This document shows positions 31,013-44,682 of a DNA stretch of 60,762 nucleotides, piece by piece. The DNA is from Candidatus Hadarchaeales archaeon (GTDB taxonomy: Archaea; Hadarchaeota; Hadarchaeia; Hadarchaeales; JAWBSP01). Location of the stretch: positions 1 through 60,762 of the forward strand of contig JAWBSP010000002.1 in assembly GCA_038842485.1 (NCBI GenBank). The letters are read 5' to 3'. Numbering within the stretch: position 1 is the first letter of the stretch; each line of letters opens with the position of its first letter. The position numbers were made by a program, and so were the translations under genes. The notes beneath the pieces were generated by a model. That model did not search any database. It was not told the DNA's origin and saw only the letters and a program-made list of their open reading frames with translations.

Positions 31013-31930
31013 TTAAAAGCCTGTTGGTGCTATAAACCTGAGCACAAAGCCAGATCCCTTCAGGATGCCGATTGACATGAGCATAAACAAGGGTGCGAAC
31101 CTTAAGCCTTTCGTGGCGCTTCCGTACCTCACTATCCCCACCGCCACGGCGCAAATGAAGGCCTGAATCCCAGTGTAAACAGTCACCGGTAGGGCAAGTT
31201 CACCGATGGCTCCCCCCTCCCCTCCCATGCTTGTGATGGTGAAGCTCAGACCTATGACGAAGGGTGCGGCCATCACGGAGACCACCACCAAGAACAGAAC
31301 CTGCTGGGTGGTGACGGCTATGCGCTCCCTCTGGATGCTCCTGACCTCAATGGCGTCCGTGGCCACTGCCTCTAGGACATCCGCCAGCCCAGCGCCTCTC
31401 TCGATTCCCTCCACGAGCAGGCGGGAGGTTCGCTCGCAGAGCGGGGAGAAGGATCTCTTTCCGAAGGCGAGCAGGGCACTGGACAGGCTCCTCCCCTTCC
31501 TGACCTCGGCAACCACTCTCCCAAACTCCTGGGAAAGGGCCCCGTATTTTGACTTGGAAATTTCCTCTAGGGCCTCCTCCACTCCGACCCCAGCCCTCAG
31601 AACGCTCGCCATATGCCTTAAAGCGTCCGGCAGCTCTCTTTCAAGCTCGGTGGCACGCCTCCGGGCGAGCTGGTAGGGGATGAGTTGAACCAGGGTGATG
31701 AAGAGAACTGAGAAGAGCACTGGAATTAGGAGGAGAAGGCGCGGTGAAAGGAGAAGCGCCCCACCCACTCCCGCCGCAAAGGAGAGGAGGAGGGAGAGGA
31801 GGAGGGAGAGACCAGCAAACTCCTCCGCGGTGAAGGCCAGCCTGGTGGAGGCGAGCCTGCGGTCCAGATTGGCTAAGAAGTTCTCCGGAAGGAGTTTTTT
31901 GGCCACTGAGGCTATCCCCTTGGCCGCCAT
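31013..31930 (-). CDS. Type IV filament platform protein, TadC-like (single T2SSF domain)
   Basis: 'ELPDALRHMASVLRAGVGVEEALEEISKS..GALSQEFGRVVAEVRKGRSLSSAL' is the T2SSF (GspF/TadB/C/FlaJ) domain. TM segments flank it. Confidence 0.8.
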   Translation of the reverse strand: MAAKGIASVAKKLLPENFLANLDRRLASTRLAFTAEEFAGLSLLLSLLLSFAAGVGGALLLSPRLLLLIPVLFSVLFITLVQLIPYQLARRRATELERELPDALRHMASVLRAGVGVEEALEEISKSKYGALSQEFGRVVAEVRKGRSLSSALLAFGKRSFSPLCERTSRLLVEGIERGAGLADVLEAVATDAIEVRSIQRERIAVTTQQVLFLVVVSVMAAPFVIGLSFTITSMGGEGGAIGELALPVTVYTGIQAFICAVAVGIVRYGSATKGLRFAPLFMLMSIGILKGSGFVLRFIAPTGF

Positions 31931-31931
31931 C

Positions 31932-32987
31932 TCAGAGCCTCGGCTCCATCCTCCTTATGGTCATGACGAAGAGCAAGAGGAGGAGCGGCAGGAGGAAGAG
32001 CAGCATCATGGAGATCAGGGCTGGTGGCAGCATTGCGGCTCCAATCCTGCTCATGACGGTGAAGGCGATGATGAGCATGGCCGGCAGGACGGCAGAGGCG
32101 AACATGTAGAGGAGGCTGAAGAGGTTGAGCGACTGGGTGAAGTCCCGGAGCTTCATCCTGAGCTCGAAGGAGGTCTCGTTGGCCATGGAGGTTAGAATCT
32201 TTGCCAGATCACCCCCCGTTCTGAGCGTCCGCCTTATTTGCCTAAGGCTCCTCCGCAGGGGCATGGATTCGATTCTTTCCTCCAAGTTGCCCAAAGCCTC
32301 CTCAAGACTCATTCCCGCCTTCACGTCCTGGACCACCCTTCCGAACTCCTCCGAGAGCGCCCCGTAGTCCGCCTGGGAGATGGAGACGATGGCTTCAGGG
32401 AGTCCCACTCCGGAGTTGAGGCTGGTTGAGAGGTGCCTGAGGACGTAAGGGAGCTTCCGGTTGATGTCCACCACCCTCCCGAGGGCCTTCTTCTTGGGAT
32501 AGTTTCTGGCGTACATGAAAACGAAAATGAAGCCGAACATTCCGATGGGCAGGTTTAGGGGGAAGGGCAGGAAGAGGGAGCAGAGGAGGAAAATGGGGAT
32601 TCCCACCAGCATCGTCAGGGCCAGAACCAGCGCCAGGAAGACCTCGGGGGAGAGCTTGATGTTCGCCCGGTAGAGATCCCTCTCCAGCCCCTTGAACGAT
32701 CCGAGCATCCGCTGGGCTGGCTTTCTGAAGGGTGAGGTTAGGAAGTTTGTGAGGCGCTCGGAGAAGGGTTTTCTGAGTTCTGGTCTCCTTCTCAGCCACA
32801 TCTTCTCCTCCTCGGGCACCGGGGTGGGAGCGAGGATAGGGGCGGAGGCCCTTTTTATCTCCTCCAGCCTCTCCACCGCCTCCTCCTCGCTGGGTTTTCC
32901 ACCAACCGCTTCCCCCACCCTGAAGATTCCCGAGCCGAGAGTGGAGAAAAAGGAGAGGAGGACTCCCCTCTTCTTTCTCTTCGGCAT
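31932..32987 (-). CDS. Type IV filament platform protein, TadB-like (single T2SSF domain)
   Basis: 'KLPYVLRHLSTSLNSGVGLPEAIVSISQADYGALSEEFGRVVQDVKAGMSLEEAL' is a T2SSF domain. Its start shares one nt with the ATPase stop. Confidence 0.8.
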   Translation of the reverse strand: MPKRKKRGVLLSFFSTLGSGIFRVGEAVGGKPSEEEAVERLEEIKRASAPILAPTPVPEEEKMWLRRRPELRKPFSERLTNFLTSPFRKPAQRMLGSFKGLERDLYRANIKLSPEVFLALVLALTMLVGIPIFLLCSLFLPFPLNLPIGMFGFIFVFMYARNYPKKKALGRVVDINRKLPYVLRHLSTSLNSGVGLPEAIVSISQADYGALSEEFGRVVQDVKAGMSLEEALGNLEERIESMPLRRSLRQIRRTLRTGGDLAKILTSMANETSFELRMKLRDFTQSLNLFSLLYMFASAVLPAMLIIAFTVMSRIGAAMLPPALISMMLLFLLPLLLLLFVMTIRRMEPRL

Positions 32988-34573
32988 CAGTCGACTTCCT
33001 TCAGGACGCTCTTGGGCTCGAGGTAGTACCTCTGGATGATCTCTCCCACCTGCTGGATGTTACGAATGTTTTTCTTGAGGAGCCAGCCCAGAATCTTCTG
33101 CCTCTGCTTCATCTCTTGCTGCAGTTCCCTCAAGCTCATGCCCGAGAACTCAGAGATTATGCGCAGGGTCCGGCTTGGGACATTGGTGGGGCGGAGCTCG
33201 TCCGTTCTGGCATCCCAGACGTAGATCCTGCTCAGCTGAGGTCTCCCCGCCTCAAGCCCAGTAACCTCGGCTACTTCAGTTATCCTCCTGACTACCCCCT
33301 TCGTCTTGTGGTGGAGACGTTGTTGCATGATGATCAGATCTAGGGCCGGGATCATGATGGGGGGCACACTCATGGGGGGTTCGGTGAGGCGGGTGATGGT
33401 CTCGGCGGCTGAGTTGGCGTGCAGGGTGCCCATGCAGCCCTCATGGCCCGTATTCATAGCGGTGAACATAGTGAGGGCCTCCGGACCTCTAACCTCTCCA
33501 ACGATCAGCCTGTCGGGCCTCATCCGTAGGGCATTTTTCACCAAATCGTCCATGGTGATTTCCCCTCGGCCCTCAATGTTAGGGGGCCTTGTTTCAAGCC
33601 TAACCCAGTGCTTGTGTGGAAGCTGGAGCTCTGCCGTGTCCTCTATCGATATGATTCTCTCTCGCTCGGGGCAGAAGTTCACCAACGTGTTGAGGGTGGT
33701 GGTCTTTCCCGAACCGGTCCCACCCGAAATCAGGATGTTCGCTGGTTTCACCCCGAAGCCGTCCACCACCGACCAGAGGAAGGAGGCAACCTCAAGGTTA
33801 AGGGTTCCAAAGCTCAACAAGTCGACAACTGTCAGGGGGTCGGATCTGAACTTTCTGATGGAGATAGTTGGGCCGGCCAGCGAAACAGGAGGAATGGTAG
33901 CGTTCACCCTACTTCCATCTGGGAGTCTGGCATCGAGAAGGGGCACTTGTTGGTCTATCCTCCGTCCCACGACCCTCGCCATCTTCTCGATTAGGTAAAG
34001 GATCGAGTCATCGTCCTCGAAGACCACGTTGGTCTGGCACATCCCGTACTTGCGGTGGAAGACGTACACGGGCTTCCCTGTGCCTATCACTAGGATATCC
34101 TCGAGCTTGTCATCGGCAATCAGGGGATCCAGCGCTCCGTAGCCGAGCATGTCCCTAACCGCCAGCTCAGAGATTACCTTGACCCTTCCGGAGGGAACGT
34201 GAAGTTTTCTGGCCTCCTCCCCCGCTATCCTCAGTGTTTCCTTGAGGAAGACCTGTCTGAGTGCGGAGGGATCTGTGAGGTCGGGGTTTACCTTGATTTC
34301 TTCTGCGGCCCGTTCCTTTGTGACCTTCAGGAGTTTTTTCTCCGCATCGGTTAGCTGGGGGATGTGTAGTCTGTAAAGGGGTAGCACTTCTCCCTGTAAG
34401 GACAGGATTTCGCACTCCCCGTACTTCTCCAAGAGTTTAGCCCCGCGGGGAATCTCTGGTGCCTCCCAACCAGTGGGTTTCGTCTCAGCAGGTGCCTTGG
34501 CTTCTGAGGGGGCACCCTCTGCTGGAATTTCGGCAAGAATTTTGGATATATATCCCTCCCCTTTCTTGGCCAT
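32987..34573 (-). CDS. Type IV filament secretion ATPase (CpaF/TadA/VirB11-FlaI superfamily)
   Basis: Walker A 'ISGGTGSGKTTTLNTL', Asp box 'ISIEDTAELQL', Walker B 'DRLIVGEVRGPEA' and His box 'GHEGCMGTLHANSA'. Confidence 0.9.
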   Translation of the reverse strand: MAKKGEGYISKILAEIPAEGAPSEAKAPAETKPTGWEAPEIPRGAKLLEKYGECEILSLQGEVLPLYRLHIPQLTDAEKKLLKVTKERAAEEIKVNPDLTDPSALRQVFLKETLRIAGEEARKLHVPSGRVKVISELAVRDMLGYGALDPLIADDKLEDILVIGTGKPVYVFHRKYGMCQTNVVFEDDDSILYLIEKMARVVGRRIDQQVPLLDARLPDGSRVNATIPPVSLAGPTISIRKFRSDPLTVVDLLSFGTLNLEVASFLWSVVDGFGVKPANILISGGTGSGKTTTLNTLVNFCPERERIISIEDTAELQLPHKHWVRLETRPPNIEGRGEITMDDLVKNALRMRPDRLIVGEVRGPEALTMFTAMNTGHEGCMGTLHANSAAETITRLTEPPMSVPPIMIPALDLIIMQQRLHHKTKGVVRRITEVAEVTGLEAGRPQLSRIYVWDARTDELRPTNVPSRTLRIISEFSGMSLRELQQEMKQRQKILGWLLKKNIRNIQQVGEIIQRYYLEPKSVLKEVD

Positions 34574-34630
34574 CAAATTTTATTTCTCCCAAGGAAATAA
34601 ACCCAAAATTCTGGCAGGCAAAGTTTCTTA

Positions 34631-34717
34631 GCGGGGGTGCCTGAGCCTGGTCGAAAGGGCAGGACTTAAGATCCTGTAGCTGTAGAGCTCTCAGGGGTTC
34701 GAATCCCCTCCCCCGCA
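34631..34717 (+). tRNA. tRNA-Leu (anticodon UAA), no intron, CCA not encoded
   Basis: Acceptor GCGGGGG/CCCCCGC + A73. Anticodon arm CAGGA-CUUAAGA-UCCUG. Long variable arm. T-arm AGGGG-TTCGAAT-CCCCT. Confidence 0.9.
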
Positions 34718-34804
34718 CAAATCAAACTTTCGAGGTCCCCAAAAAATGATCTGGGGAAAAGTGTTTCCCGGGCATGTTTTTAGAAATTTCCTCCGAGGAA
34801 AGTG

Positions 34805-35551: not shown

Positions 35552-35679
35552 GCATTGCTCCAACGAGGTTAGCGAGAAATTGATAGTGGACTGCTGTCGG
35601 GCATGCAAGCGTATATTACTCGTATTCACCTGCAACAAAAAACTCAAGCCCCTAGACGGGGGATGACGAAGAGAGCAGG

Positions 35680-35697
35680 GTGGCGAACGTTCGCCAC
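35680..35697. promoter_or_regulatory. 18-bp perfect palindrome GTGGCGAACGTTCGCCAC
   Basis: Read directly. The core GCGAACGTTCGC recurs at 35873-35884. Confidence 0.6.
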
Positions 35698-35871
35698 TTA
35701 AAGATTTCGGGAAAAGGCCCCCCGCGCCTCTATCATCTTCTAGAGCACCTAAAATCGGGGTCTGGTGGAGTGGGCTCACTACAGCGTTGTGGAACCAAGA
35801 GACTGGATGTCCTGTAGATAGCCGCTCCCGTCGAGAACTATGGCCAAGGTGGGTATCCACCCAACGTTAAA

Positions 35872-35885
35872 TGCGAACGTTCGCA
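35872..35885. promoter_or_regulatory. 14-bp perfect palindrome TGCGAACGTTCGCA, ~70 nt upstream of the SMC-like gene
   Basis: Read directly. Second copy of the GCGAACGTTCGC core. Confidence 0.6.
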
Positions 35886-35952
35886 AGCCCCGCTCTGGGG
35901 AGGGTAAAATGCCTGCGCCGAGAGCGATTTTTCCCCGTTCGTCTATAATCGG

Positions 35953-37821
35953 ATGGCGCTCCTGAAGGAAATCATCTTGGAGAATTTCATGAGCTACAAG
36001 TATGCTCGGATACCCCTACGACCGGGTCTGAACATCATCTGCGGGCCGAACGGGGCGGGAAAGTCCTCCATCCTTCTGGGACTAGCAGTGGCCCTCGGTC
36101 AGTCTTACACGGAGCGTTCTAGAAGGTTGGGGGAGCTGGTCAGAAGGGGGGAGAGTATTGGGAGGGTGACGGTGGTTTTCGACAACTCGCCCAGAAATGG
36201 TTCGAGACCCCTCCCAGATTTCAAATCCGATCAGATCGTTCTCTCTAGGTATCTAAGGAGGGACGGGACTTACTGGCAGGAACTCAACAACCGCAGCGTG
36301 CTGAAGGGGGAAGTTGAGCGCCTGCTTCAGCGTCTCCATCTGAACCCCGACAACATGCTTATCATCATGCACCAGAACATGATCGACCTCTTCGGGGCTC
36401 TCGATCCTCCGCAGCGCCTGCAGTTGGTGGAGGAGGCGGTGGGGATGAAGAACTACCGGGAGATGATCCTCCAAGCCCGTGAGAAGCTCTCCCACACCCT
36501 AAGCGAGGAGCAGGCCATCAAGAGCATGCTTGAGCGAGCGCAGGAAACGCTGAAGCACTGGGAGGCTGAGTACCAGAGGCTTCTGAGAAAGCGGGAACTC
36601 CAAGAAAGCAAGCGAAGGCTCGAGCTGGAACATGCCTGGGCGAAGTACCAGCGGAGGGAGGAGGAGGCAGCGGAACTGAAGAGGAAGATCTCGGATCTGA
36701 AGCGGGAGCTAGCCGAAATACTTCAGGGGCTGGAGGCAGGAACGAGGGAGGAGGCAGATTTAAAGGAGGAGCTCGGGAGGCTGGAGTTTGAACTGGATTC
36801 CGCTTATCAGGCCCTCATTCTCCTCGAGCGGAGGAGGGTGGAGGCCGAAACAAGGGCCAAACTTCTGGAAGGGCTGAAGCTGCAGGGAGTGGAGCGGGAG
36901 CTTGAGAGAGCCAAGGCCACCCTGCCTGAGGTGGACGGAGAAATAGAGGAGAAGAGGTCCGAGGTCTCAAGGGTCAAACAGCTACTCTCGAAGCGAAGGG
37001 AGGAATACGTGAACTGCAGGGTTAGACTGGCAGTTCTGGAGTTCAGGAAGGGCTTGGTGGAGGGAGAAGTCTCCACCCTTCAGTCCGATCTCAGAAGGGT
37101 TCAGGAGGAACTGGCGGAACTGCGGGTTGAAGCCGAGAAGGTTGGACCGCGAGTGAAGACCAGCAGGAAGCCGGCGGAGGTTCTGGATGAACTCAGGCTG
37201 GTGAACGCTCAGCTCGCCAGTCTCGCGGATGTCTCAGAGGACGCGGAGAAAATGTACATGAGCTACCAAGAAACCCTAAAGGAGCTCGAGGAGAAGAGCA
37301 GGATAGCCGCCAAGAACCGAGAGAGGGCACTCCAGGAATTGGAGCTCAGGAAGCGGAGGTGGCAAACGGAGTTGGAAAAGCTCCTCAAGGAGGTGAGGGT
37401 GAGCTTCAACCGTTTACTGGAGCGGGTAGGGGGGAGGGGTGATCTGGTTCTCTCTCACCCGGAAGACATAGAGGAGTCGGGGCTGGAGATATACGTGGGG
37501 TTTGGGGGGGCCGAGCCACATCTTCTGGATGCCTACACGCAGAGCGGGGGGGAGAGAACGACTGCCATCATGTGTTTCATGCTCGCTCTGCAGAACCGTA
37601 TCAAGTCTCCCCTCAGGGCGGTGGACGAGTTCGAGGCCCATTTGGATCCACATAAGAGGGAGGAGCTGATGAGGGGAATAATGGAGGTCTGTGGGGAGGG
37701 GGAGAATCAGTACCTCCTCATCACTCCAGGCTGGCTCAGTGGTCTGCAGAAGGTTTCGAACGTGGTGGTGGTTCAGAACGTCGGCGGGGTTTCCGAGGTG
37801 AAAATAGTTGAAGCCGACTGA
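35953..37821 (+). CDS. Short hinge-less SMC-family ATPase with Smc5/6-like head (622 aa)
   Basis: 'ILENFMSYKY..LNIICGPNGAGKSSILLGLAVALG' (Walker A), 'IIMHQNMIDLF' (Q-loop) and about 300 aa of E/L/R/K heptad-rich coiled coil without a globular hinge. C-terminal 'QSGGERTTAIMCFMLALQ....LRAVDEFEAHLD' gives the signature and Walker B. Confidence 0.8.
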   Translation: MALLKEIILENFMSYKYARIPLRPGLNIICGPNGAGKSSILLGLAVALGQSYTERSRRLGELVRRGESIGRVTVVFDNSPRNGSRPLPDFKSDQIVLSRYLRRDGTYWQELNNRSVLKGEVERLLQRLHLNPDNMLIIMHQNMIDLFGALDPPQRLQLVEEAVGMKNYREMILQAREKLSHTLSEEQAIKSMLERAQETLKHWEAEYQRLLRKRELQESKRRLELEHAWAKYQRREEEAAELKRKISDLKRELAEILQGLEAGTREEADLKEELGRLEFELDSAYQALILLERRRVEAETRAKLLEGLKLQGVERELERAKATLPEVDGEIEEKRSEVSRVKQLLSKRREEYVNCRVRLAVLEFRKGLVEGEVSTLQSDLRRVQEELAELRVEAEKVGPRVKTSRKPAEVLDELRLVNAQLASLADVSEDAEKMYMSYQETLKELEEKSRIAAKNRERALQELELRKRRWQTELEKLLKEVRVSFNRLLERVGGRGDLVLSHPEDIEESGLEIYVGFGGAEPHLLDAYTQSGGERTTAIMCFMLALQNRIKSPLRAVDEFEAHLDPHKREELMRGIMEVCGEGENQYLLITPGWLSGLQKVSNVVVVQNVGGVSEVKIVEAD

Positions 37822-38557
37822 GCGCAGGGATTTGATCCTGAGGATCATAGATCTTTGCGAATCGGTCAGCAAGAAGGGGCTGAACCCTTTTGATGTGAAG
37901 GTAAGGGAACTCTTTGACAGGTTGAGGGAGCTGCTTCCCCTGCTCAAGAAGCATGAGGAGCTTTACCTGGATCTTCAAGCCGTTTTGGGGCTCTCCGAGG
38001 TGGTCTACCAGCAAGGGGAGTGGATTAAACATCGCTCCTCCCTCCTTTACCTCGACCCCTTCCTAGTTCTCCTCAAGCTGCAGGCTCTTTCGCCAGAGGA
38101 GCTTGCAGAGATTTTTGTGAGGTCTTGGCATCCGGTGCTTGAGCTGGAGTGCCTCACGACGAACGGGCTGAGGGAGGGACACGACTACTGGAGGCTCCTT
38201 CCCAGTCTGGAGGAGAGACTGAGGGGACCCGTGGTTGCGGAAATCCGACCTGGCATGATGGAGAGGGAGGAGCTTGAGCGGATGGGTTTCCTGCCCAAGG
38301 AGCTCTTTGAGGAAATGCTCGAGCAGCTTTGGATGGAGTTGAGGAAGAAGGGCAAAGTTTCCTATTGGCAGTTCGTGAAGGGAAGAGACTACACGGAGAC
38401 GGTTAGAAGAGCGTATCTGCTCAGCTTCTTGATTACTTACGGGAGGGCCGCGGTGGAGGTGGATCCCATCAAGGAGGAGATAAAGGTGGAGGCTAGGGAG
38501 GAGCCGGAGCGGAGAAGGGAAACGTGCTCCCTGCCCATCTCCATTTCACCCCCATAG
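37808..38557 (+). CDS. Kleisin-like (ScpA/Nse4-like) protein; TTG start (37808 or 37832) uncertain
   Basis: Translationally coupled to the SMC-like gene. C-terminal 'VSYWQFVKGRDYTETVRRAYLLSFLITYGRAAVEVDP' resembles the kleisin C-terminal winged helix. N-terminal helical segment 'FDVKVRELFDRLRELL'. Assignment is by pattern and context only. Confidence 0.45.
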   Translation: MKPTERRDLILRIIDLCESVSKKGLNPFDVKVRELFDRLRELLPLLKKHEELYLDLQAVLGLSEVVYQQGEWIKHRSSLLYLDPFLVLLKLQALSPEELAEIFVRSWHPVLELECLTTNGLREGHDYWRLLPSLEERLRGPVVAEIRPGMMEREELERMGFLPKELFEEMLEQLWMELRKKGKVSYWQFVKGRDYTETVRRAYLLSFLITYGRAAVEVDPIKEEIKVEAREEPERRRETCSLPISISPP

Positions 38558-39112
38558 ATGGAGGAGACGGAAGCAGAACTCAGGGAGAAGATGGCGAGGG
38601 CCATGCAGCTTCTCTGTTTCAAGCATCACATGGAGCCTGGAGCTAAGGCTTGGGAGCTGAGACATGCGCTGGGCAAGAATTACGAGCAAGTTCTGAAGGC
38701 CCTTCAGGTGGAGCTTGAGAGGCTGGGGCTTACCATAAAAAAAGTTCCCTCTGGAGGGGAGACGGAGTCCGACCGGTACTTTGTGACTCTTCGTGGATCT
38801 CCCCCGCTCGCGGCGGCCAGGACCTATGGATGGAGGGTGGATGAGATGGGGATGCTGACGGCCATCCTTGCGCAGCTTCTGGTGAAGGGCGGGAAGATTC
38901 CCCTGAAGGAGGTCGTGCAGCTGCTTGAAGAGAAGTTCCCGAAGTTTAGGGTGGACATGGCGGTTGAGAAATTCATAAGGAGGGGATATCTGGAGGAGGA
39001 CGAGGAAGGGATGTTGTACTTGGGCTGGCGGACGAGAGCAGAGGTGGATGAAAAGACCCTGATGGGGCTGCTGCTGGGGAAGACGCCCTCGGGGGAGAAA
39101 AAGAGCGAGTGA
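38558..39112 (+). CDS. Tandem winged-helix 'kite' protein, MAGE/Nse3-like (alternatively ScpB-like)
   Basis: WH-A-like 'AMQLLCFKHHMEPGAKAWELRHALGKNYEQVLKALQVELERLGLTIKKV...DRYFVTL'. WH-B-like 'GMLTAILAQLLVKGGKIPLKEVVQLLEE...FIRRGYLEEDEEGMLYLGWRTRAEVDEKTLMGLL', compared with the MAGE '..YLEY...YEFLWGPRA.aE..K..vL.F'. Starts 1 nt after the kleisin-like stop. Confidence 0.5.
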   Translation: MEETEAELREKMARAMQLLCFKHHMEPGAKAWELRHALGKNYEQVLKALQVELERLGLTIKKVPSGGETESDRYFVTLRGSPPLAAARTYGWRVDEMGMLTAILAQLLVKGGKIPLKEVVQLLEEKFPKFRVDMAVEKFIRRGYLEEDEEGMLYLGWRTRAEVDEKTLMGLLLGKTPSGEKKSE

Positions 39113-39763: not shown

Positions 39764-40255
39764 TCAAGTGGAGAAGGAGAAAACGATTGAGTTTGAGGGT
39801 TTGTGTATCAGGGTCAGTCCCCCGATGTCTGTAAGTCTCACGTTTTCCCTCCCCTCCAGTCTGAGGAGGAATTTGCCGAGCCTGATCTGCTCGCCAGAGG
39901 ACCAAATGGTCAGAACTCCCCATTCCGGGCCCTCACCCGTTGCCATTGCCAGTCCGCCGGTCGAGAGGTTTTCTGCCCGTAACCTAACTCTCTGCCTAAC
40001 CGCCCCGTTCTCTAAGGTTCCTTCCAAAATCATCGACAGGTCACTAGCTCGCAGGAATTCTCCCCCTTGGTGCAGGAAGGTGAGCTCGGTCACGTTCTCC
40101 CACACTTGGAGGCCTACTAACTGCACGGGGACACAAGGAGCGGGGCTGGGCCAAATCCCCGTTGCACCCCTCACCACCAGCATGAAAAGGGCTGTCATGA
40201 CCATAACCACCGCGAGCAGCAGGGAGACCGCGACTACTGGGGAGACCCCTCTCAT
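39764..40255 (-). CDS. Archaeal type IV pilin N-terminal domain (DUF1628/Pilin_N-like) protein
   Basis: 'MRGVSPVVAVSLLLAVVMVMTALFMLVV' is the typical R-G-V-S-P-V-(I/V) prepilin-like N-terminus. ATGA overlap with the upstream gene. Confidence 0.65.
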   Translation of the reverse strand: MRGVSPVVAVSLLLAVVMVMTALFMLVVRGATGIWPSPAPCVPVQLVGLQVWENVTELTFLHQGGEFLRASDLSMILEGTLENGAVRQRVRLRAENLSTGGLAMATGEGPEWGVLTIWSSGEQIRLGKFLLRLEGRENVRLTDIGGLTLIHKPSNSIVFSFST

Positions 40256-41007
40256 GATCCCACCCTCACCCTCATCCGATAGACCCGTTTGAAGTAGTGT
40301 AGCGGGCCAGGAAGGATGAGTTTCAGGTTTTCCAAGGTCGGTGAATATCCCCGTGCCGCCAGCCAAGAATTCTCCACCAGCAGGTACTCGGTCCAAGCAT
40401 CCTCAGCGGGGCTGTGAAATTCTATGGTGAGGTTTTCACCGCTCTGCACCAAGTTTTCAGACACGAGCAGGTTCTCGCAGATGAGGGTGAGGCTTAGAAC
40501 CCCGGTGCCGGAGATTCGAAAGTTCTCCCCTTCCAGCTCGAAAACTTGATGATATACCTCGTTTTCTCTCACAGCTAGGGCGGCGGGGGGGGAGAGCATG
40601 AGTGCTTCCCCTTCCTGCACCAGCAGGATCGCCCCGTTTTCATAGATGATTTCCATATCCGGGTACCGGTAGTTCTGGGAGCGGAAGAGCAACCTCCCCC
40701 ACGAGTTGTCGAACTGGATGGTCCCCCCCGCGGTTCTCCCCACGACGAAAGGGAGGAAGGGAATGATGCTTGGAACGGGCTCCCCGCCTAGGGAAAGAGG
40801 CACCGTGGCCGTCCCGCCTGGTTGAAGCCTTTCCGCGGCGGTCTGTAGCTGGAGAAAAGCCGTCTTGACCTCTTCCAAGTGTTTGGCCTCCATCTCATGC
40901 AGCGCGTGATTCTGGTAGGTCAAGGAGGTATAGAGGATGGCAGGTATCACAACAGCCAGGACCAGAACTGCCTCGACCACCACCGAAACCCCCTTCTCCT
41001 CTAGCAT
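40252..41007 (-). CDS. Pilin_N-like protein 2
   Basis: 'MLEEKGVSVVVEAVLVLAVVIPAILYTSL' with the internal Met chosen. 7-nt overlap with the upstream gene. Confidence 0.55.
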   Translation of the reverse strand: MLEEKGVSVVVEAVLVLAVVIPAILYTSLTYQNHALHEMEAKHLEEVKTAFLQLQTAAERLQPGGTATVPLSLGGEPVPSIIPFLPFVVGRTAGGTIQFDNSWGRLLFRSQNYRYPDMEIIYENGAILLVQEGEALMLSPPAALAVRENEVYHQVFELEGENFRISGTGVLSLTLICENLLVSENLVQSGENLTIEFHSPAEDAWTEYLLVENSWLAARGYSPTLENLKLILPGPLHYFKRVYRMRVRVGS

Positions 41008-41723
41008 CCCCTCCTCGCCGAGAGCAGGAGGATCCTGTGGATGTAGTTTTCTCCAATTCCCAGCCTCCACCCGTTCTCGAGGTTATCGAGCGAGGCGCCT
41101 CCACCCAGCAGGTTATCCCTCACCCCTTTCAGGTACCTCTCCCAAGCCCAAGGGTATCGGGACCAGATGTAAACATTCTCGCTTTCCTCCGATTCAAGAT
41201 AGTTCTCGACGAAGAGGATGATGGTTGCCCTCCCAGTCCCCGCCAGTTTCTGAAGGGAGTCGGCAATTCTTATCTCCTTGTAAATCAGTCTCCCGTTCTC
41301 AATCGTAAAGATTGAAGGTTCCGACTTCATGATAACGGCCGAGCCCTGTTTCAGAAGAATGGCTCCTCCCTCATAAATCCAAGTTTGCCTTGGATAGATT
41401 GAGCTTCCGGATTCGAAACAGATAGAGCCTGGTAGGTTCTCGTTCTCCGCCCAGAGGGTGCTCGCTCTTTTGGGGGCCGAAACCATAACAGGAAAAGTGG
41501 GGGACATCCTGAAGCTGGCTGTCCTTATTTCCCCGTTTTCCGCCAGCTTGGAGAGAGTGAACTGGAGGTTCCTGAAGTCTTCGTAGACAAGTTGCATGTG
41601 TGCGACCTCCGCCTCCTTTATCAAGTTATAGACGAGGTTTCGATACCAGAGGGCAAAAACCATGAGGAGGACCATGGTGACCATGATGGCAAAGATGATG
41701 ACGGAAACACCCGCTCGCTCCAT
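41001..41723 (-). CDS. Pilin_N-like protein 3
   Basis: 'MERAGVSVIIFAIMVTMVLLMVFALWY'. Met at 41723 avoids overlap with the ileS stop at 41746. Confidence 0.55.
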   Translation of the reverse strand: MERAGVSVIIFAIMVTMVLLMVFALWYRNLVYNLIKEAEVAHMQLVYEDFRNLQFTLSKLAENGEIRTASFRMSPTFPVMVSAPKRASTLWAENENLPGSICFESGSSIYPRQTWIYEGGAILLKQGSAVIMKSEPSIFTIENGRLIYKEIRIADSLQKLAGTGRATIILFVENYLESEESENVYIWSRYPWAWERYLKGVRDNLLGGGASLDNLENGWRLGIGENYIHRILLLSARRGC

Positions 41724-41745
41724 CAAGTAACACAGGCGAGATTTG

Positions 41746-44682
41746 CTATGCCCTACTCTGTTGGTGCGGTATGATGGTGAGGATCCACTTTTCCCCCTCC
41801 ACCTCAAACTCCCTCCGGACTCCGGTCCACTGGGGGGAGGTGGAGAGCCTGAGATTCCGGATTCTGACCTCCTGTTTGATGTAGTCCTCCATCAGGCTTA
41901 TGAGCTTGAGACTTTCCTCCCCCATGCAAGCCTCAGCATCCACTCTCTCCTCCATTTTGAGGGAGAGTTCCCTTCTCATGAGCTGGAGCCTCCTCACCAG
42001 TTCCCTTGCCAGAGCCTCGGCTTTCAGCTCATCGCTCAACTCACAGTCCACGACGACTCTACCCTCCGGACATTCACAAGCAGAAGCTTTTGAGGGGAGG
42101 GGCTTTTCGCCAGGCCTGCATAGCGCAACTTCTTTGCAGTTGAGCATAGTTTTGAGCACATCCTCCAACGGACGGATCTTGTCTAGGATGGCAGGTTCAC
42201 TCTCGATGATGACCGTCCTCACAGGCCACCTCAGCTTCACGCCCGCATTCTGTCGGGCGGAAATCCCCGCTTCCACCAGTTTTCTAACGAGTTCCATGGC
42301 TTCTTCTAACTCTCGATGAATGAGACCCTTGTCGGGTGCTGGCCAGTCGCACATGTGAACACTCTCTCCCCCTTCTAGGTCCCGGTAGATTAGCTCTGTG
42401 AGATGTGGGGTGAAGGGTGCGAGAAGTTTGGAGAGCGTCAGCAGGATTTTGTATAGTGTGAAGTAGGCGGCAGTTTTGGTGGGATCCTCTGTTTCTATCC
42501 AGGTCCTCCTGCGGATGAGCTTGATGTACCACCTGCTGAGATCCTCCTGAATGAAGTCCCTCAGCGCTCTGGTGGCAAGGTGCAGTTCATACCTCTCGAG
42601 CGCGGAGGTCACCTCCTCTATCAGGTTTTGGAGTCTGGAGAGAATCCAGAGATCCTCCTTTCTGAGGTGTCGCTGAATCTCCTCTCCTACGGTTTCTGGG
42701 TCAAAGGAGTCGAGGGACATGTAGGTGGTAGCGAAGACATGCACATTCCAGAAAGTGTTGAGAAGTCTGCGAGCCTCCATCACTCCCCTCATGCTAAACT
42801 TCAGATCCTCCCAAGGAGGATTGGAGGAGAGCACGTAAAACCTGAGGGCATCGGCACCGTACTTCTCGGCAACCTCCAACGGCTCTATTACGTTCCCCAG
42901 CGATTTGGACATTTTCCTTCCATGCTCGTCAAGCGCGAACCCGTGCATGAGTACGGATCGGTAGGGCACCTCTCCAAACGCCGCTATCGAAGAGACCTGC
43001 TGGGCGTAGAACCACTTGGTTACTTGGTCCTCCCCCTCTGTGATGAATTCGCTCGGCCACGGCCAGAGTTGGGAAGTTCCAGCAGGGTAGTTTAGAGAAG
43101 CCCAAGCAGCGATGCTGGAGTCAAACCAGACATCCAGCACATCCGGTACTCTCCGCATCTCACCACCACACTCGCACCTCAGCACGATGCTGTCCACATC
43201 CGGGCGGTGCAGGCTCTTGGGCTCAGCACCTCTCTCCCTCAGCTCCCGTCTGCTCTCGATAAATAACTCCCTTCCACACCTTTCGCAGACCCAGAGGGGA
43301 ATGGGGATACCCCAGTATCTCTGTCTCGAGAGGCACCAGTCCCCCACCGACTCCACCCCGTTGACGTACCTCTCCTTCACCCAAGCGGGGAACCAGTTCA
43401 CCTCCTCGTTCTTCTGGAGCAGGAGCGGTTTGAGAAGCGAACTACAGAGGAACCACTGTTCGGTGGCCCTGAAGAGGAGGGGAGTGTGGCACCGCCAGCA
43501 GTGTGGGTAGGAGTGAACGATGGTTCCCCTCTTTACCAAAACTCCTTTACGCTGGAGGTCGGAGAGAATCATCTCGTCTGCATCTTTGACGTACAATCCT
43601 GCGTATTTGCCAGCCTCCTCCGTGAATCTCCCCCTCCCGTCCACCGGACAAAAGGGGGGCAAATTGTATCTGATTCCAACCTCGAAGTCCTCCTCACCGT
43701 GTCCTGGGGCGGTGTGTACGCATCCCGTTCCCTCCTCAAGCGTGACATGATCTCCAAGGATGACCATGTGTTTGAACTCCCGCTGTTTGGGAACCTCCTC
43801 CACCATGGGGTGCTCATACTCCAACCCCTCCAGCTCGGCACCCTTCTTTCTGTCCACCACTCTATACTCCCAGCCCAACTCGGTGGTCACCTTCTCCAGT
43901 AGCCCCTCGGCCAAAATGTAACGCTCGCCCGCAACCTCGATTTCAACGTATACAAACTCTGGGTGCACACAGACGGCGAGGTCGGCTGGGAGGGTCCAAG
44001 GAGTGGTGGTCCAAACTAGAAGGTATCGATTTTTCTCCCCCTTGAGTTTGAATCTCAGGTAGACAGAGGGGTCGCTTCGGTCTTGGTACTCACCTCTAAC
44101 CTCGTGCTCCGCCAGGGCTGTTTCGCATCTGGGGCACCAGTGGATGACTCTGAGCGCTTTCCTTAGTAGATTTTTCTCATGAGCCCTTTTGAGCGTCCAC
44201 CAAGCACACTCGATGTAATCGTCCGTCAGGGTGAGGTACGGCTTGTCCCAGTCCATCCAAATTCCAAGTCTCTTGAACTCCTCGCTCATGGTTTTGACAT
44301 GTTTCAGTGCCCAAGATCTGCACTCCTCCACGAACCTCCCGATTCCAATTTTCTCCTCGATCTCCTTCTTCGAGCCGATTCCCAGGAGTTCCTCAACCTT
44401 CACCTCGATGGGCAGCCCGTGACAGTCCCATCCCGGTTGTCTCCTGACGTTGTAACCCCTCATGGTTCTGTACCTGAGGACGGTGTCCTTGATGATCTTG
44501 TTCCAGGCCGTCCCGAGGTGGATGGAACCACTTGCGTAGGGGGGACCGTCCAAAAAGTACCAGAGGGGTCCCTTCGAGCGCATCCTTTTTACCTTCTCAT
44601 AGATGTTCTCCTCCTCCCACCTCCGCTGGATTTCTCTTTCTTCCTCCGGTCCACTGTATTTTCCCGCAGGTTTGATCTTCAT
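41746..44682 (-). CDS. ileS: Isoleucine--tRNA ligase
   Basis: 978 aa with 'PPYASGSIHLGTAWNK' (HIGH region), 'KMSKSLGN' (KMSKS), a CP1 editing domain and zinc-binding CxxC pairs. Confidence 0.97.
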   Translation of the reverse strand: MKIKPAGKYSGPEEEREIQRRWEEENIYEKVKRMRSKGPLWYFLDGPPYASGSIHLGTAWNKIIKDTVLRYRTMRGYNVRRQPGWDCHGLPIEVKVEELLGIGSKKEIEEKIGIGRFVEECRSWALKHVKTMSEEFKRLGIWMDWDKPYLTLTDDYIECAWWTLKRAHEKNLLRKALRVIHWCPRCETALAEHEVRGEYQDRSDPSVYLRFKLKGEKNRYLLVWTTTPWTLPADLAVCVHPEFVYVEIEVAGERYILAEGLLEKVTTELGWEYRVVDRKKGAELEGLEYEHPMVEEVPKQREFKHMVILGDHVTLEEGTGCVHTAPGHGEEDFEVGIRYNLPPFCPVDGRGRFTEEAGKYAGLYVKDADEMILSDLQRKGVLVKRGTIVHSYPHCWRCHTPLLFRATEQWFLCSSLLKPLLLQKNEEVNWFPAWVKERYVNGVESVGDWCLSRQRYWGIPIPLWVCERCGRELFIESRRELRERGAEPKSLHRPDVDSIVLRCECGGEMRRVPDVLDVWFDSSIAAWASLNYPAGTSQLWPWPSEFITEGEDQVTKWFYAQQVSSIAAFGEVPYRSVLMHGFALDEHGRKMSKSLGNVIEPLEVAEKYGADALRFYVLSSNPPWEDLKFSMRGVMEARRLLNTFWNVHVFATTYMSLDSFDPETVGEEIQRHLRKEDLWILSRLQNLIEEVTSALERYELHLATRALRDFIQEDLSRWYIKLIRRRTWIETEDPTKTAAYFTLYKILLTLSKLLAPFTPHLTELIYRDLEGGESVHMCDWPAPDKGLIHRELEEAMELVRKLVEAGISARQNAGVKLRWPVRTVIIESEPAILDKIRPLEDVLKTMLNCKEVALCRPGEKPLPSKASACECPEGRVVVDCELSDELKAEALARELVRRLQLMRRELSLKMEERVDAEACMGEESLKLISLMEDYIKQEVRIRNLRLSTSPQWTGVRREFEVEGEKWILTIIPHQQSRA

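What the first reader, a model, noticed from the sequence alone, without database searches (positions are those of the whole stretch)
35953..39112. Compact SMC-kleisin-kite operon: hinge-less Smc5/6-like ATPase + kleisin-like protein + MAGE/Nse3-like tandem winged-helix protein
Seen in sequence: three translationally coupled genes. Gene 2's candidate TTG start overlaps the gene 1 stop, and gene 3's ATG follows the gene 2 stop by 1 nt.

Gene 1 is 622 aa. It has an SMC-type N-terminal head ('ENFMSYKY..LNIICGPNGAGKSSILLGLAVALG') and a Q-loop ('IIMHQNMIDLF'). About 300 aa of heptad-rich Glu/Leu/Arg/Lys sequence follow, with only a short break near '..GLKLQGVEREL..LPEVDG..' and no room for a globular hinge. 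The C-terminal head reads 'QSGGERTTAIMCFMLALQNRIKSPLRAVDEFEAHLD'. From memory of the families, the SGGER signature and the DEF-xxx-D Walker B are Smc5/Smc6-like rather than Smc1-4 or bacterial-SMC-like.

Gene 2 is 249 aa and ends in a segment resembling the kleisin C-terminal winged helix.

Gene 3 is 184 aa and reads as two winged helices. Their conserved positions parallel the MAGE homology domain: 'ELERLGLTIKKV' versus LE.vFGI.LKEV, 'GMLTAILAQLLVKGGKIPLKEV' versus GLL..IL..IF..G....EE, and 'RRGYLEEDEEGMLYLGWRTRAEVDEKTLMGLL' versus ..YLEY....YEFLWGPRA.aE..K..vL.F.

Canonical archaeal SMC is about 1150-1200 aa with a hinge and pairs with ScpA/ScpB. A roughly half-length, hinge-less SMC with its own kleisin and a MAGE-like kite is not a standard annotated system. 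It could be a minimal Smc5/6-like or Wadjet/MukBEF-analogous DNA-organising or DNA-restricting module. No nuclease (JetD-like) gene is adjacent.
Basis: partly seen in the sequence, partly recalled or inferred. Interest (0 to 1): 0.88.

Follow-up and report, generated by a model that had tools for sequence, protein, structure and literature searches.

The report
Hinge-less archaeal Smc5/6-like operon
Three coupled genes of a Hadarchaeales archaeon encode a miniature relative of the eukaryotic Smc5/6 DNA-maintenance complex; this kind of archaeal operon was already reported in a 2024-25 preprint, but the fact that its ATPase has short arms and no hinge was not mentioned there.

Summary
Three co-directional ORFs of 622, 249 and 184 aa sit at 35953-39112 and are tightly coupled. 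Gene 1 is a true SMC whose best solved-structure matches are Smc5 (1e-33, against 8e-22 for archaeal Smc). Outside its own archaeal family, the first named relative among 1.84 billion representatives is a eukaryotic SMC5. The gene 2 family profile hits only Nse4-family chains in the PDB. The gene 3 model matches Nse3/MAGE and Nse1 best, and ScpB is absent from the top 50. The trio recurs in Hadarchaeota, Bathyarchaeia and Nitrososphaeria. It is not new as a kind: van Hooff et al. (bioRxiv 2024/25) list a Hadesarchaeon with this "SMC5/6-related" operon. What I found undescribed is the architecture. The model shows a ~140-residue coiled-coil hairpin closed by a 6-residue turn, with no hinge or zinc hook. 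Of 49 complete close representatives, 46 are this short. Relatives also include a 982-aa form with a hinge-like middle and the same partner genes, and ~1030-aa forms with a central CxxC, one of which stands alone. The likely function is an ATP-gated, kleisin-bridged DNA clamp for chromosome maintenance; this is inferred. Interest is moderate.

The parts
35953..37821 (+). Gene 1: Smc5/6-related SMC ATPase, 622 aa, short-armed and without a hinge
   Evidence: Pfam SMC_N 2.5e-28. Best PDB sequence matches are yeast Smc5 at 1.4e-33 and human Smc5 at 5e-26, against Pyrococcus Smc at 8e-22. AlphaFold2 model pLDDT 83.6. Foldseek finds SMC head, neck and joint structures.
35953..36447 (+). N-terminal head lobe (residues 1-165), with Walker A at 31-38, an invariant TERS motif at 53-56 (R-loop-like, my reading) and the Q-loop at 139-142
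   Evidence: Motifs, invariant columns, model. Aligns to Smc5 20-259 together with the neck.
36448..36873 (+). Ascending arm helix (residues 166-307)
   Evidence: One continuous helix in the model. The proximal part is conserved (0.79) and the distal part less so (0.58).
36874..36891 (+). Arm apex: a 6-residue turn (residues 308-313) in place of a hinge or zinc hook
   Evidence: Model. Least conserved region of the protein (0.44), with a ~14-residue indel within the family. No Cys nearby.
36892..37425 (+). Descending arm (residues 314-491), made of helices 314-397, 407-423 and 431-491
37144..37242 (+). Conserved coiled-coil break (residues 398-430), joint-like
   Evidence: Helix breaks at 398-406 and 424-430. 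Conservation is 0.80, as high as the heads. The top Foldseek hit is the Pyrococcus Smc head with coiled coil and joint, 5xei. Calling it a joint is my inference.
37426..37818 (+). C-terminal head lobe (residues 492-622), with signature QSGGER at 530-535 and Walker B/D-loop AVDEFEAHLD at 556-565
   Evidence: Aligns to Smc5 856-1032, including TQSGGER..LALQ..SP.R.VDE and QY.LITP..L.GL.
37795..37801 (+). Shine-Dalgarno-like GAGGTGA, 6 nt upstream of gene 2's TTG and inside the end of gene 1
   Evidence: Read from sequence. Function is inferred.
37808..38557 (+). Gene 2: Nse4-like kleisin, 249 aa
   Evidence: Pfam Nse4_C at E 8.7e-4, below threshold, for this protein; 21 of 24 family members hit it, best 9e-6. 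Family profile against the PDB: EID3/NSE4B 1.5e-5, yeast Nse4 2.3e-4. The profile also matches, at both ends, the ORF downstream of a canonical archaeal SMC in L003.
37808..38137 (+). Kleisin N-terminal conserved domain (about residues 1-110), presumed SMC-neck binder
   Evidence: Strongly conserved block. Weak ScpA N-domain match, 6ivh_A at E 0.099. N-terminal match to a ScpA-position ORF in L003, i-E 0.0096 in a 374-ORF set. Binding role is inferred.
38360..38554 (+). Kleisin C-terminal winged helix (about residues 185-249), presumed SMC-cap binder
   Evidence: Nse4_C match over residues 185-232. Aligns to the C-terminal parts of EID3 and Nse4. Binding role is inferred.
38558..39112 (+). Gene 3: Nse1/Nse3 (MAGE)-like kite, 184 aa, tandem winged helices
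   Evidence: Model pLDDT 79.8, with two helix-helix-helix-strand-strand units at about residues 5-78 and 94-172. Foldseek: 7dg2_C Nse3 at 1.5e-7 (TM 0.66), 7dg2_A Nse1 at TM 0.64, MAGE-G1, then JetB and MukE. Pfam MAGE is sub-threshold in 17 of 22 members.

Best explanation
Identity. The three genes form one operon for a member of the archaeal 'SMC5/6-related' SMC-kleisin-kite complexes, in a chromosomal, housekeeping context of a Hadarchaeales archaeon. Its parts are an SMC ATPase most similar to Smc5, an Nse4-like kleisin and an Nse1/3 (MAGE)-like kite. It is the short form of that family. Each ATPase folds back into a coiled-coil hairpin of about 140 residues (roughly 20 nm). The hairpin keeps a conserved neck and a joint-like break, but ends in a bare, poorly conserved turn instead of a hinge or zinc hook.

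Shown here: the ORFs and their coupling; an intact set of ATPase motifs; the family affinities of all three proteins; conserved synteny; and the hinge-less architecture, from a confident model, an alignment and composition.

Inferred, by analogy with solved Smc5/6 and Smc-ScpAB structures: two ATPase subunits engage head to head around two ATP molecules. One kleisin bridges them asymmetrically, with its N-domain on one neck and its C-terminal winged helix on the other cap. A kite homodimer sits on the middle of the kleisin. With no hinge, the kleisin and head engagement would be the only stable links between the two ATPases. The complex would then work as the head-proximal DNA clamp seen in DNA-bound Smc5/6, holding or tethering DNA in an ATP-gated way during replication or repair. 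It would not work as a closed-ring loop extruder, unless the arms zip together or the tips associate.

I put about 0.85 on the identity and architecture, and about 0.4 on the clamp mechanism.
For: ORFs and coupling.

SMC identity and Smc5 affinity: PDB phmmer gives Smc5 1.4e-33 against Pyrococcus Smc 8e-22, Smc6 1.6e-14 and Rad50 about 3e-6. In the search of 1.84 billion representatives, the archaeal family is followed by proteins of ~1000-1130 aa, of which the one with a source name is an insect SMC5.

Kleisin. Kite.

Synteny, with sizes in aa for SMC/kleisin/kite: Bathyarchaeota 640/275/184; Nitrososphaeria 668/252/186; Hadarchaeum 634/264/206; complete Bathyarchaeota genome 711/272/183; and a 982-aa long form with 251/180, whose homology was confirmed at 5.6e-35 and 1e-27.

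Hinge-less architecture: model; apex is the least conserved region and varies in length; 46 of 49 complete close representatives are 548-685 aa; no charge-poor, Gly/Pro-rich middle segment, unlike P0417, P0437 and P0440.

Housekeeping context with uniform GC.

Published classification of Hadarchaeota genes as SMC5/6-related and Nse1/3-related, with an operon example.

DNA clamp formed by heads, necks and Nse1/3/4 in yeast Smc5/6: abstract of PMC9191643.
Against: No complex model or experiment was possible, so the stoichiometry, kleisin bridging, kite dimerisation and DNA clamping are all inferred.

The Pfam hits for genes 2 and 3 of this window are below the gathering thresholds (19.9 against 26 bits, and 14.7 against 25 bits). 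The kite family profile has no significant PDB sequence hit, so the kite assignment rests on a predicted fold.

Foldseek with the ATPase model does not separate Smc5/6 from other SMCs.

My rough neighbour-joining head tree does not resolve the deep nodes. Head identity to the eukaryote-length group (30%) is only slightly above that to canonical SMC (27%).

The apex has lower model confidence (pLDDT 67-72), and a tip-to-tip contact cannot be excluded.

The function could instead be that of a loop-extruding condensin.
Confidence: 0.8

Rival explanations
1. It is a condensin-like loop extruder. The two short arms align as a rod and the tips associate, so the complex still forms a closed SMC compartment. 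It translocates on DNA like Smc-ScpAB or MukBEF, only with about 20-nm arms.
For: All core SMC-kleisin-kite parts are present, with an intact ATPase, neck and joint-like break. Vertical conservation in a housekeeping context fits a chromosome-organising role. A paper on hinge-less bacterial SMCs speculates about a comparable change of mechanism (PMC12153180).
Against: The apex is the least conserved part of the protein (0.44) and varies by about 14 residues within one phylum. That is not what a dedicated dimerisation interface would look like. At least one relative (WYZ-LMO6) also encodes a canonical SMC operon that could do this job.
Confidence: 0.2
2. It is an anti-plasmid or anti-virus defence module, analogous to Wadjet (JetABC) or Lamassu (LmuB/LmuC), that senses and restricts foreign DNA.
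For: PADLOC gives generic SMC-type hits for gene 1: mad3 at 2.3e-27, LmuB at 2.1e-20 and JetC at 5.7e-8. JetB is the sixth-best structural match of the kite. From my own knowledge, eukaryotic Smc5/6 also restricts viral DNA; the abstract of PMC9458440 says so.
Against: Genes 2 and 3 have no PADLOC hit at all, even at E<=1. No nuclease or other effector gene is adjacent. The neighbours are tRNA-Leu, DUF72, Gar1, S8e, pilins and IleRS, and GC content is uniform. The operon is present throughout Hadarchaeota and in TACK lineages with changing neighbours, which indicates vertical inheritance of a core function rather than a defence island. The gene 1 scores are higher for Smc5 (120 bits) than for any defence model (at most 94.5 bits).
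Confidence: 0.06
3. Gene 1 is a stand-alone Rad50/RecN/ASRP-type repair or compartment ATPase, and the two downstream genes are unrelated small wHTH proteins.
For: A short coiled coil without a hinge resembles RecN (my own knowledge). NCBIfam gives weak partial hits to Rad50 (3e-16), ASRP (1.5e-14) and RecN (1e-7). The close CxxC-bearing relative P0384 stands alone.
Against: All those scores are far below the family cutoffs and below the SMC and Smc5 scores. There is no zinc hook. The downstream genes have Nse4-like and Nse1/3-like signatures, and they stay adjacent to the SMC in five of the six orthologous loci examined (the exception, L084, keeps the kleisin-kite pair without an adjacent SMC); the genes overlap or abut with no or almost no spacer.
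Confidence: 0.03

Closest known systems
Archaeal 'SMC5/6-related' SMC-kleisin-kite operons (van Hooff, Raas, Tromer & Eme, bioRxiv 10.1101/2024.01.07.573240; 'SMC5/6-related aSMC' of Yoshinaga & Inagaki 2021, PMC8665677)
   Same: Same three components in the same order: an SMC5/6-related SMC, an Nse4-related kleisin and an Nse1/3-related kite. Hadarchaeota genomes are scored positive in their table, and Hadesarchaea archaeon WYZ-LMO6 is listed as an operon example.
   Different: Nothing in kind; this window is another member. The papers' texts and supplements that I could search do not mention the half length, the missing hinge or the CxxC variants. The coiled coils were trimmed before their phylogenies.
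Eukaryotic Smc5/6 with Nse1-Nse3-Nse4
   Same: The ATPase head motifs align residue by residue with Smc5. The kleisin C-terminal winged helix matches Nse4/EID3. The kite fold matches Nse3/MAGE and Nse1.
   Different: There is one SMC gene, so a homodimer is expected rather than Smc5-Smc6. There is one kite rather than Nse1 plus Nse3. No RING domain was detected in gene 3. No Nse2, Nse5 or Nse6 genes were found among the neighbours scanned. About 415 residues of distal arm and hinge are missing: the region between the head lobes is 181 aa against 596 aa in Smc5.
Canonical prokaryotic Smc-ScpAB
   Same: Same SMC-kleisin-kite logic and operon layout. The head, neck and joint fold matches Pyrococcus Smc. 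The kleisin profile weakly recognises a ScpA N-domain and a ScpA-position ORF next to a canonical archaeal SMC.
   Different: Canonical SMCs in the fetched loci are 1133-1197 aa. Gene 1 reaches only 178 bits against a cutoff of 729 for the archaeal SMC model. ScpB does not appear among the top 50 fold matches of the kite, and neither gene 2 nor gene 3 hit a Pfam ScpA or ScpB family.
Wadjet JetABCD and MukBEF
   Same: Kite-containing SMC complexes. JetB and MukE are lower-ranked structural matches of gene 3.
   Different: No JetD-type nuclease. No JetA or JetB sequence hits. Housekeeping context.
ASRP family (ClsN/coalescin, Sph1/2) and Rad50
   Same: Archaeal SMC-superfamily ATPases that lack an SMC hinge.
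   Different: Those proteins carry a zinc hook (PMC9389158), and gene 1 has none. Its ASRP score is 54 bits against a cutoff of 300. ASRPs are not reported with kleisin or kite partners; the word 'kleisin' does not occur in that paper.
Hinge-less SMC homologues of marine Actinobacteria (PMC12153180)
   Same: An SMC head plus a coiled-coil hairpin without a hinge domain.
   Different: A bacterial lineage described within canonical SMC diversity. That paper makes no mention of Smc5/6, kleisin or Nse proteins.

Membership tests
Archaeal SMC5/6-related SMC-kleisin-kite complex | The SMC ATPase is closer to Smc5/6 than to canonical SMC, Rad50 or ASRP | tested here: met
   PDB ranks: Smc5 1.4e-33, Pyrococcus Smc 8e-22, Smc6 1.6e-14, Rad50 about 3e-6. 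The first named relative outside the archaeal family among 1.84 billion representatives is a eukaryotic SMC5. Published trees place Hadarchaeota proteins in the SMC5/6-related clade. Caveat: my own neighbour-joining tree does not resolve the deep nodes.
Archaeal SMC5/6-related SMC-kleisin-kite complex | An adjacent Nse4-related kleisin | tested here: met
   21 of 24 family members hit Nse4_C. The family profile hits only Nse4-family chains in the PDB at E<=2.3e-4. This window's protein alone is below Pfam's threshold.
Archaeal SMC5/6-related SMC-kleisin-kite complex | An adjacent Nse1/3-related kite | tested here: met
   Foldseek top hits are Nse3, MAGE-G1 and Nse1. Sequence support is sub-threshold only.
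Archaeal SMC5/6-related SMC-kleisin-kite complex | The three genes are co-localised in one operon and conserved across genomes | tested here: met
   One exception is L084, where the kleisin and kite lack an adjacent SMC.
Eukaryotic Smc5/6 holocomplex | A heterodimer of two distinct SMC paralogues, each with a hinge | tested here: not met
   There is a single SMC gene and no hinge.
Eukaryotic Smc5/6 holocomplex | Nse1 with a RING domain, the Nse2 SUMO ligase and Nse5/6 | tested here: not met
   Gene 3 is 184 aa, consists of two winged helices only and has no RING hit. None of the neighbouring genes scanned encodes such a protein. The rest of the genome was not searched.
Canonical Smc-ScpAB | An SMC of about 1150-1200 aa with a hinge that reaches the SMC_prok equivalog cutoff | tested here: not met
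   178 bits against a cutoff of 729 for TIGR02169. The protein is 622 aa with no SMC_hinge hit.
Canonical Smc-ScpAB | A ScpA kleisin and a ScpB kite | tested here: not met
   No Pfam or NCBIfam ScpA or ScpB hit. There is only a weak ScpA N-domain similarity at E 0.099. ScpB is not in the top 50 fold matches.
Wadjet (JetABCD) | JetA, JetB and JetC profiles plus a JetD Toprim nuclease in the locus | tested here: not met
   PADLOC gives no hit for genes 2 and 3, and the JetC hits cover only coiled-coil stretches. No nuclease gene among the neighbours.
Lamassu (LmuABC) | An LmuB SMC-like ATPase with LmuC and an LmuA effector | tested here: not met
   The LmuB profile hits at 2.1e-20, a score that is generic for SMC-like ATPases and lower than the Smc5 score. 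There is no PADLOC hit of any kind for genes 2 and 3, and no effector gene.
ASRP (ClsN/Sph) and Rad50/SbcC | A CxxC zinc hook at the coiled-coil apex and a family-level score | tested here: not met
   No CxxC; the Cys residues are at 30, 355, 541 and 580 only. ASRP scores 54 against a cutoff of 300, and Rad50 scores 58 against 700.

The most novel reading that the evidence does not exclude
The prevalent form of the archaeal Smc5/6-related complex, in Hadarchaeota, Bathyarchaeia and Nitrososphaeria, is a natural minimal SMC machine totalling about 1,055 aa (622 + 249 + 184). It has lost the hinge and distal arms yet kept the kleisin and kite. The kleisin, not a hinge, would then be the constitutive link between the two ATPases, and the complex would act as a pure head-module DNA clamp. 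The same family also contains a form with a hinge-like middle and kleisin-kite partners, and CxxC (zinc-hook-like) forms, one of which stands alone. The arm apex has therefore been remodelled repeatedly within one clade, bridging the SMC-type and Rad50-type architectures among the closest prokaryotic relatives of eukaryotic Smc5/6.
Probability: 0.45. Interest if true: 0.75.

Novelty: new member of a known kind. Interest (0 to 1): 0.55.

Why it matters
Smc5/6 is the least understood eukaryotic SMC complex, and its prokaryotic roots were traced only recently, and only by phylogenetics. This operon confirms that picture from independent evidence: profile searches, fold comparison and synteny. It also adds a structural point that the phylogenetic papers passed over. 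Most archaeal members are half-length and have neither a hinge nor a hook. If that holds biochemically, the family offers two things. First, it is a small three-protein model of the Smc5/6 head, kleisin and kite DNA clamp, likely thermostable given the hosts' habitats (my inference), and suitable for cryo-EM and single-molecule work. Second, it is a natural test of whether an SMC-kleisin-kite machine needs a closed arm compartment at all. The coexistence of hairpin, CxxC and hinge-like apices in one clade is also relevant to how the SMC, Rad50 and ASRP architectures interconvert.

Tried and rejected
1. The scan of GTDB genomes with the gene 1 alignment was swamped by the generic Walker A pattern. 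Only 1 of the 80 loci (L001) was an orthologue, so synteny had to come from exact-protein look-ups instead.

2. Foldseek with the ATPase model confirmed an SMC head, neck and joint but could not discriminate between SMC subfamilies.

3. The kite family profile against PDB sequences gave no significant hit. The best were MarR at 0.12 and a MAGE chain at 0.21. The kite assignment therefore rests on fold comparison plus sub-threshold Pfam hits.

4. My first tree attempts failed or were flawed: a Biopython timeout and NaN distances. The corrected neighbour-joining tree is rough and leaves the deep nodes unresolved, so I use it only for the nesting of the CxxC forms.

5. Defence readings (Wadjet, Lamassu) were considered and rejected on context and on the absence of partner profiles.

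6. Rad50, RecN and ASRP readings were rejected on scores and the absence of a hook.

7. I considered whether the same-frame TAG|ATG junction between genes 2 and 3 could signal a read-through fusion. It recurs in L001, but the other orthologous loci use overlaps in different frames, so I treat it as ordinary coupling.

8. Whether this particular genome also encodes a canonical Smc-ScpAB could not be tested. The window holds no ORF above 978 aa, and no tool could scan the rest of the assembly.

9. Rfam searches of the window and of the upstream gap found only tRNA-Leu.

Full report
OBSERVATION

NCBI's gene calls for the source assembly (GCA_038861785.1, Candidatus Hadarchaeales) are identical.

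Read from the sequence, gene 2's TTG lies 14 nt inside the end of gene 1 and is preceded by GAGGTGA, which resembles a Shine-Dalgarno site. Gene 3's ATG follows gene 2's TAG with no spacer. Gene 3 ends 2 nt before the stop of a convergent Gar1 gene. Homologue N-termini support the TTG start.

WHAT THE THREE PROTEINS ARE

Gene 1 is a true SMC. It hits Pfam SMC_N at 2.5e-28. Among solved structures its best sequence matches are yeast Smc5 (1.4e-33) and human Smc5 (5e-26), ahead of Pyrococcus Smc (8e-22), Smc3, Smc6 (1.6e-14) and Rad50 (about 3e-6).

The alignment with Smc5 covers both head lobes: query 6-243 to Smc5 20-259, and query 425-599 to Smc5 856-1032. It includes TQSGGER..LALQ..SP.R.VDE and QY.LITP..L.GL. 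The segment between the lobes is 181 residues here and 596 in Smc5.

An exhaustive HMMER search of 1.84 billion representative proteins returned first an archaeal family. It then returned proteins of about 1000-1130 aa at 25-30% identity. The one that carries a source name is an insect SMC5, and another comes from a choanoflagellate. NCBIfam models for canonical SMC, Rad50, ASRP and RecN were all hit far below their cutoffs.

Gene 2 alone gives a sub-threshold Pfam Nse4_C hit (E 8.7e-4, 19.9 bits against a cutoff of 26). The signal becomes clear at family level. I aligned 24 homologues from Hadarchaeota, Bathyarchaeia, Nitrososphaeria and Geothermarchaeales. Of these, 21 hit Nse4_C. The family profile finds only Nse4-family chains in the PDB: human EID3/NSE4B at 1.5e-5 and yeast Nse4 at 2.3e-4. 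It also gives a weak match of its N-terminal block to a ScpA N-domain, at E 0.099. The same profile recognises, collinearly at both ends, the 250-aa ORF immediately downstream of a canonical archaeal SMC in L003 (20.6 bits). That is what a kleisin should do.

Gene 3 has only weak sequence signals. Pfam MAGE is sub-threshold in 17 of 22 family members and SMC_Nse1 in 2, and there is no significant PDB sequence hit. Its AlphaFold2 model (pLDDT 79.8) is a tandem winged helix. The five best PDB fold matches are Xenopus Nse3 (7dg2_C, E 1.5e-7, TM 0.66), MAGE-G1 (two entries) and Nse1 (two entries). After these come JetB, yeast Nse3 and Nse1, MAGE-A11 and MAGE-A3, and MukE. ScpB is not among the 50 rows shown.

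SYNTENY AND CONTEXT

The same SMC-kleisin-kite order recurs in the following loci.

| Source | Locus | SMC / kleisin / kite (aa) |
|---|---|---|
| Bathyarchaeota | L001 | 640 / 275 / 184 |
| Nitrososphaeria | L081 | 668 / 252 / 186 |
| Hadarchaeum | L082, L083 | 634 / 264 / 206 |
| Bathyarchaeota, complete genome | L085 | 711 / 272 / 183 |

More than 120 clusters of the ATPase at 55-81% identity come from Hadarchaeota.

In the window the neighbours are housekeeping genes: a type IV pilus ATPase and membrane proteins, tRNA-Leu, DUF72, Gar1, ribosomal protein S8e, pilins and IleRS. GC content is uniform. There is no nuclease, no defence gene, and no PADLOC hit for genes 2 or 3. This argues against a Wadjet-like or Lamassu-like defence role.

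PRIOR KNOWLEDGE

The concept is not new. Yoshinaga and Inagaki (2021, PMC8665677) defined "SMC5/6-related" archaeal SMCs. van Hooff et al. (bioRxiv 10.1101/2024.01.07.573240, version 2 of 2025) showed that many archaea encode a second complete operon: an SMC5/6-related SMC, an Nse4-related kleisin and an Nse1/3-related kite. These are mostly TACK and Asgard archaea, with "a few euryarchaeal species".

Their Supplementary Table 3 scores several Hadarchaeota as positive. It lists Hadesarchaea archaeon WYZ-LMO6 as an example with both a canonical operon and an SMC5/6-related operon.

The thing itself is a further member of a described kind. No experimental or structural study of the archaeal complex turned up in four literature searches.

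WHAT APPEARS UNDESCRIBED: THE ARCHITECTURE

The AlphaFold2 model of gene 1 (pLDDT 83.6) has these parts:
- an N-terminal head lobe (residues 1-165);
- one continuous helix (166-307);
- a 6-residue turn (308-313);
- return helices (314-397, 407-423 and 431-491);
- a C-terminal head lobe.

This makes a coiled-coil hairpin of about 140 residues, or roughly 20 nm by my estimate. There is no globular domain and no CxxC at the tip.

Conservation within Hadarchaeota is highest in the heads (0.77-0.84), the necks (0.72-0.79) and a break at residues 398-430 (0.80) that I read as a joint. It is lower in the distal arms (0.58-0.60). It is lowest at the apex (0.44), which also carries a ~14-residue indel. 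Of 49 complete representative clusters with E<=1e-97, 46 are 548-685 aa, with a median of 619. So the short form is the rule in this clade, not an assembly artefact.

The family also contains other apex types.
- P0417 (982 aa) and P0437 (928 aa) have a charge-poor, Gly/Pro-richer middle segment that looks like a hinge.
- The Asgard (Freyarchaeum) protein P0440 (835 aa) has a Pfam SMC_hinge at 4.6e-11.
- P0417 is followed by confirmed kleisin and kite homologues, at 5.6e-35 and 1e-27.
- Three Bathyarchaeota clusters of 1016-1047 aa carry a conserved central C-[DE]-[KR]-C-G-S motif, which looks like a zinc hook. They are monophyletic (98%) and nest with three short forms (83%) in a rough head tree. 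The one locus I examined stands alone, without kleisin or kite genes.

Neither the main texts nor the supplements of the two phylogenetic papers mention length, hinge loss or a hook for these proteins. Hinge-less SMCs have been described, but in marine Actinobacteria and without any link to Smc5/6 or kleisins (PMC12153180).

MECHANISM

Shown: an intact ABC-type ATPase head with an SMC neck and a joint-like break; a kleisin with conserved N-terminal and C-terminal domains; a tandem winged-helix kite; and tightly coupled genes.

Inferred from solved Smc5/6 and Smc-ScpAB structures: two ATPase subunits sandwich ATP between their heads. One kleisin bridges the neck of one subunit and the cap of the other. 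A kite homodimer binds the middle of the kleisin.

All the elements that form the DNA clamp of yeast Smc5/6 are retained: heads, necks and Nse1/3/4 (abstract of PMC9191643). The part that would close the arm compartment is missing. I therefore favour an ATP-gated, kleisin-bridged DNA clamp or tether over a closed-ring loop extruder. This is an inference, at about 0.4.

A replication or repair role is suggested, weakly, by Lhr-type helicase genes next to the operon in three other lineages. None is present among the neighbours I annotated in this window.

VERDICT

The operon is a new member of a known but purely bioinformatically described kind. The hinge-less, short-arm architecture and the variable apex within the family are, as far as I could search, unreported, and they give the finding moderate interest.

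Noticed in passing
window 35552-35952 (palindromes at 35683-35694 and 35873-35884; segment 35670-35895): The 400-nt gap upstream of gene 1 holds two perfect copies of the 12-nt palindrome GCGAACGTTCGC, 190 nt apart. These are the only two in the window, against 0.07 expected by chance. The segment they bracket folds with a long closing stem: on the minus strand z = -3.6 with 0 of 200 shuffles folding as well, and on the plus strand z = -1.9. There is no Rfam match, and the palindrome is absent upstream of the Hadarchaeum orthologues. It could be an unannotated structured RNA or a pair of operator sites.
   Followed up: partly
L081 1029-3872 and 7298-10165; L085 7027-9939; L088 10586-10949: Lhr-type helicase genes (DEAD_assoc and WHD_Lhr domains) lie next to the orthologous operon in Nitrososphaeria (two of them, flanking), in a complete Bathyarchaeota genome, and beside the 982-aa long form. 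This hints at a DNA-repair link. None is present among the neighbours annotated in this window.
   Followed up: no
P0375, P0384, P0387 (proteins); L087 4001-7087: Close Bathyarchaeota relatives of 1016-1047 aa carry a conserved central C-[DE]-[KR]-C-G-S motif, like a zinc hook, in an otherwise Smc5/6-related protein. In the one locus examined, the gene stands alone without kleisin or kite genes.
   Followed up: partly
L084 2723-6378: In a Geothermarchaeales contig, the kleisin and a full-length kite sit directly after a topoisomerase IA gene, with no SMC gene adjacent. The kite was called as only 136 aa by the source, but the profile matches a 189-aa ORF.
   Followed up: no
window 38555-38560; L001 8745-8750: Genes 2 and 3 are in the same reading frame, separated only by the TAG stop, and the same holds in Bathyarchaeota L001. 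Other orthologous loci use 1-, 4- or 8-nt overlaps in other frames, so this is probably ordinary termination-reinitiation coupling rather than programmed read-through.
   Followed up: yes
P0444 (628 aa) and P0450 (633 aa): Two further short SMC-like representatives group with the hinge-bearing Asgard protein P0440 and with canonical SMCs, not with the window's family, in the rough head tree (89% for the nine-member group). They may be a second, independent class of short SMCs.
   Followed up: no
window 31013-34576 and 39764-41807: The operon lies between parts of an archaeal type IV pilus or archaellum-like gene set. On one side are two T2SSF membrane proteins and a T2SSE ATPase. On the other are a Pilin_N protein, a DUF7289 protein and an unassigned 267-aa ORF. 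tRNA-Leu(TAA) is at 34631-34718.
   Followed up: no
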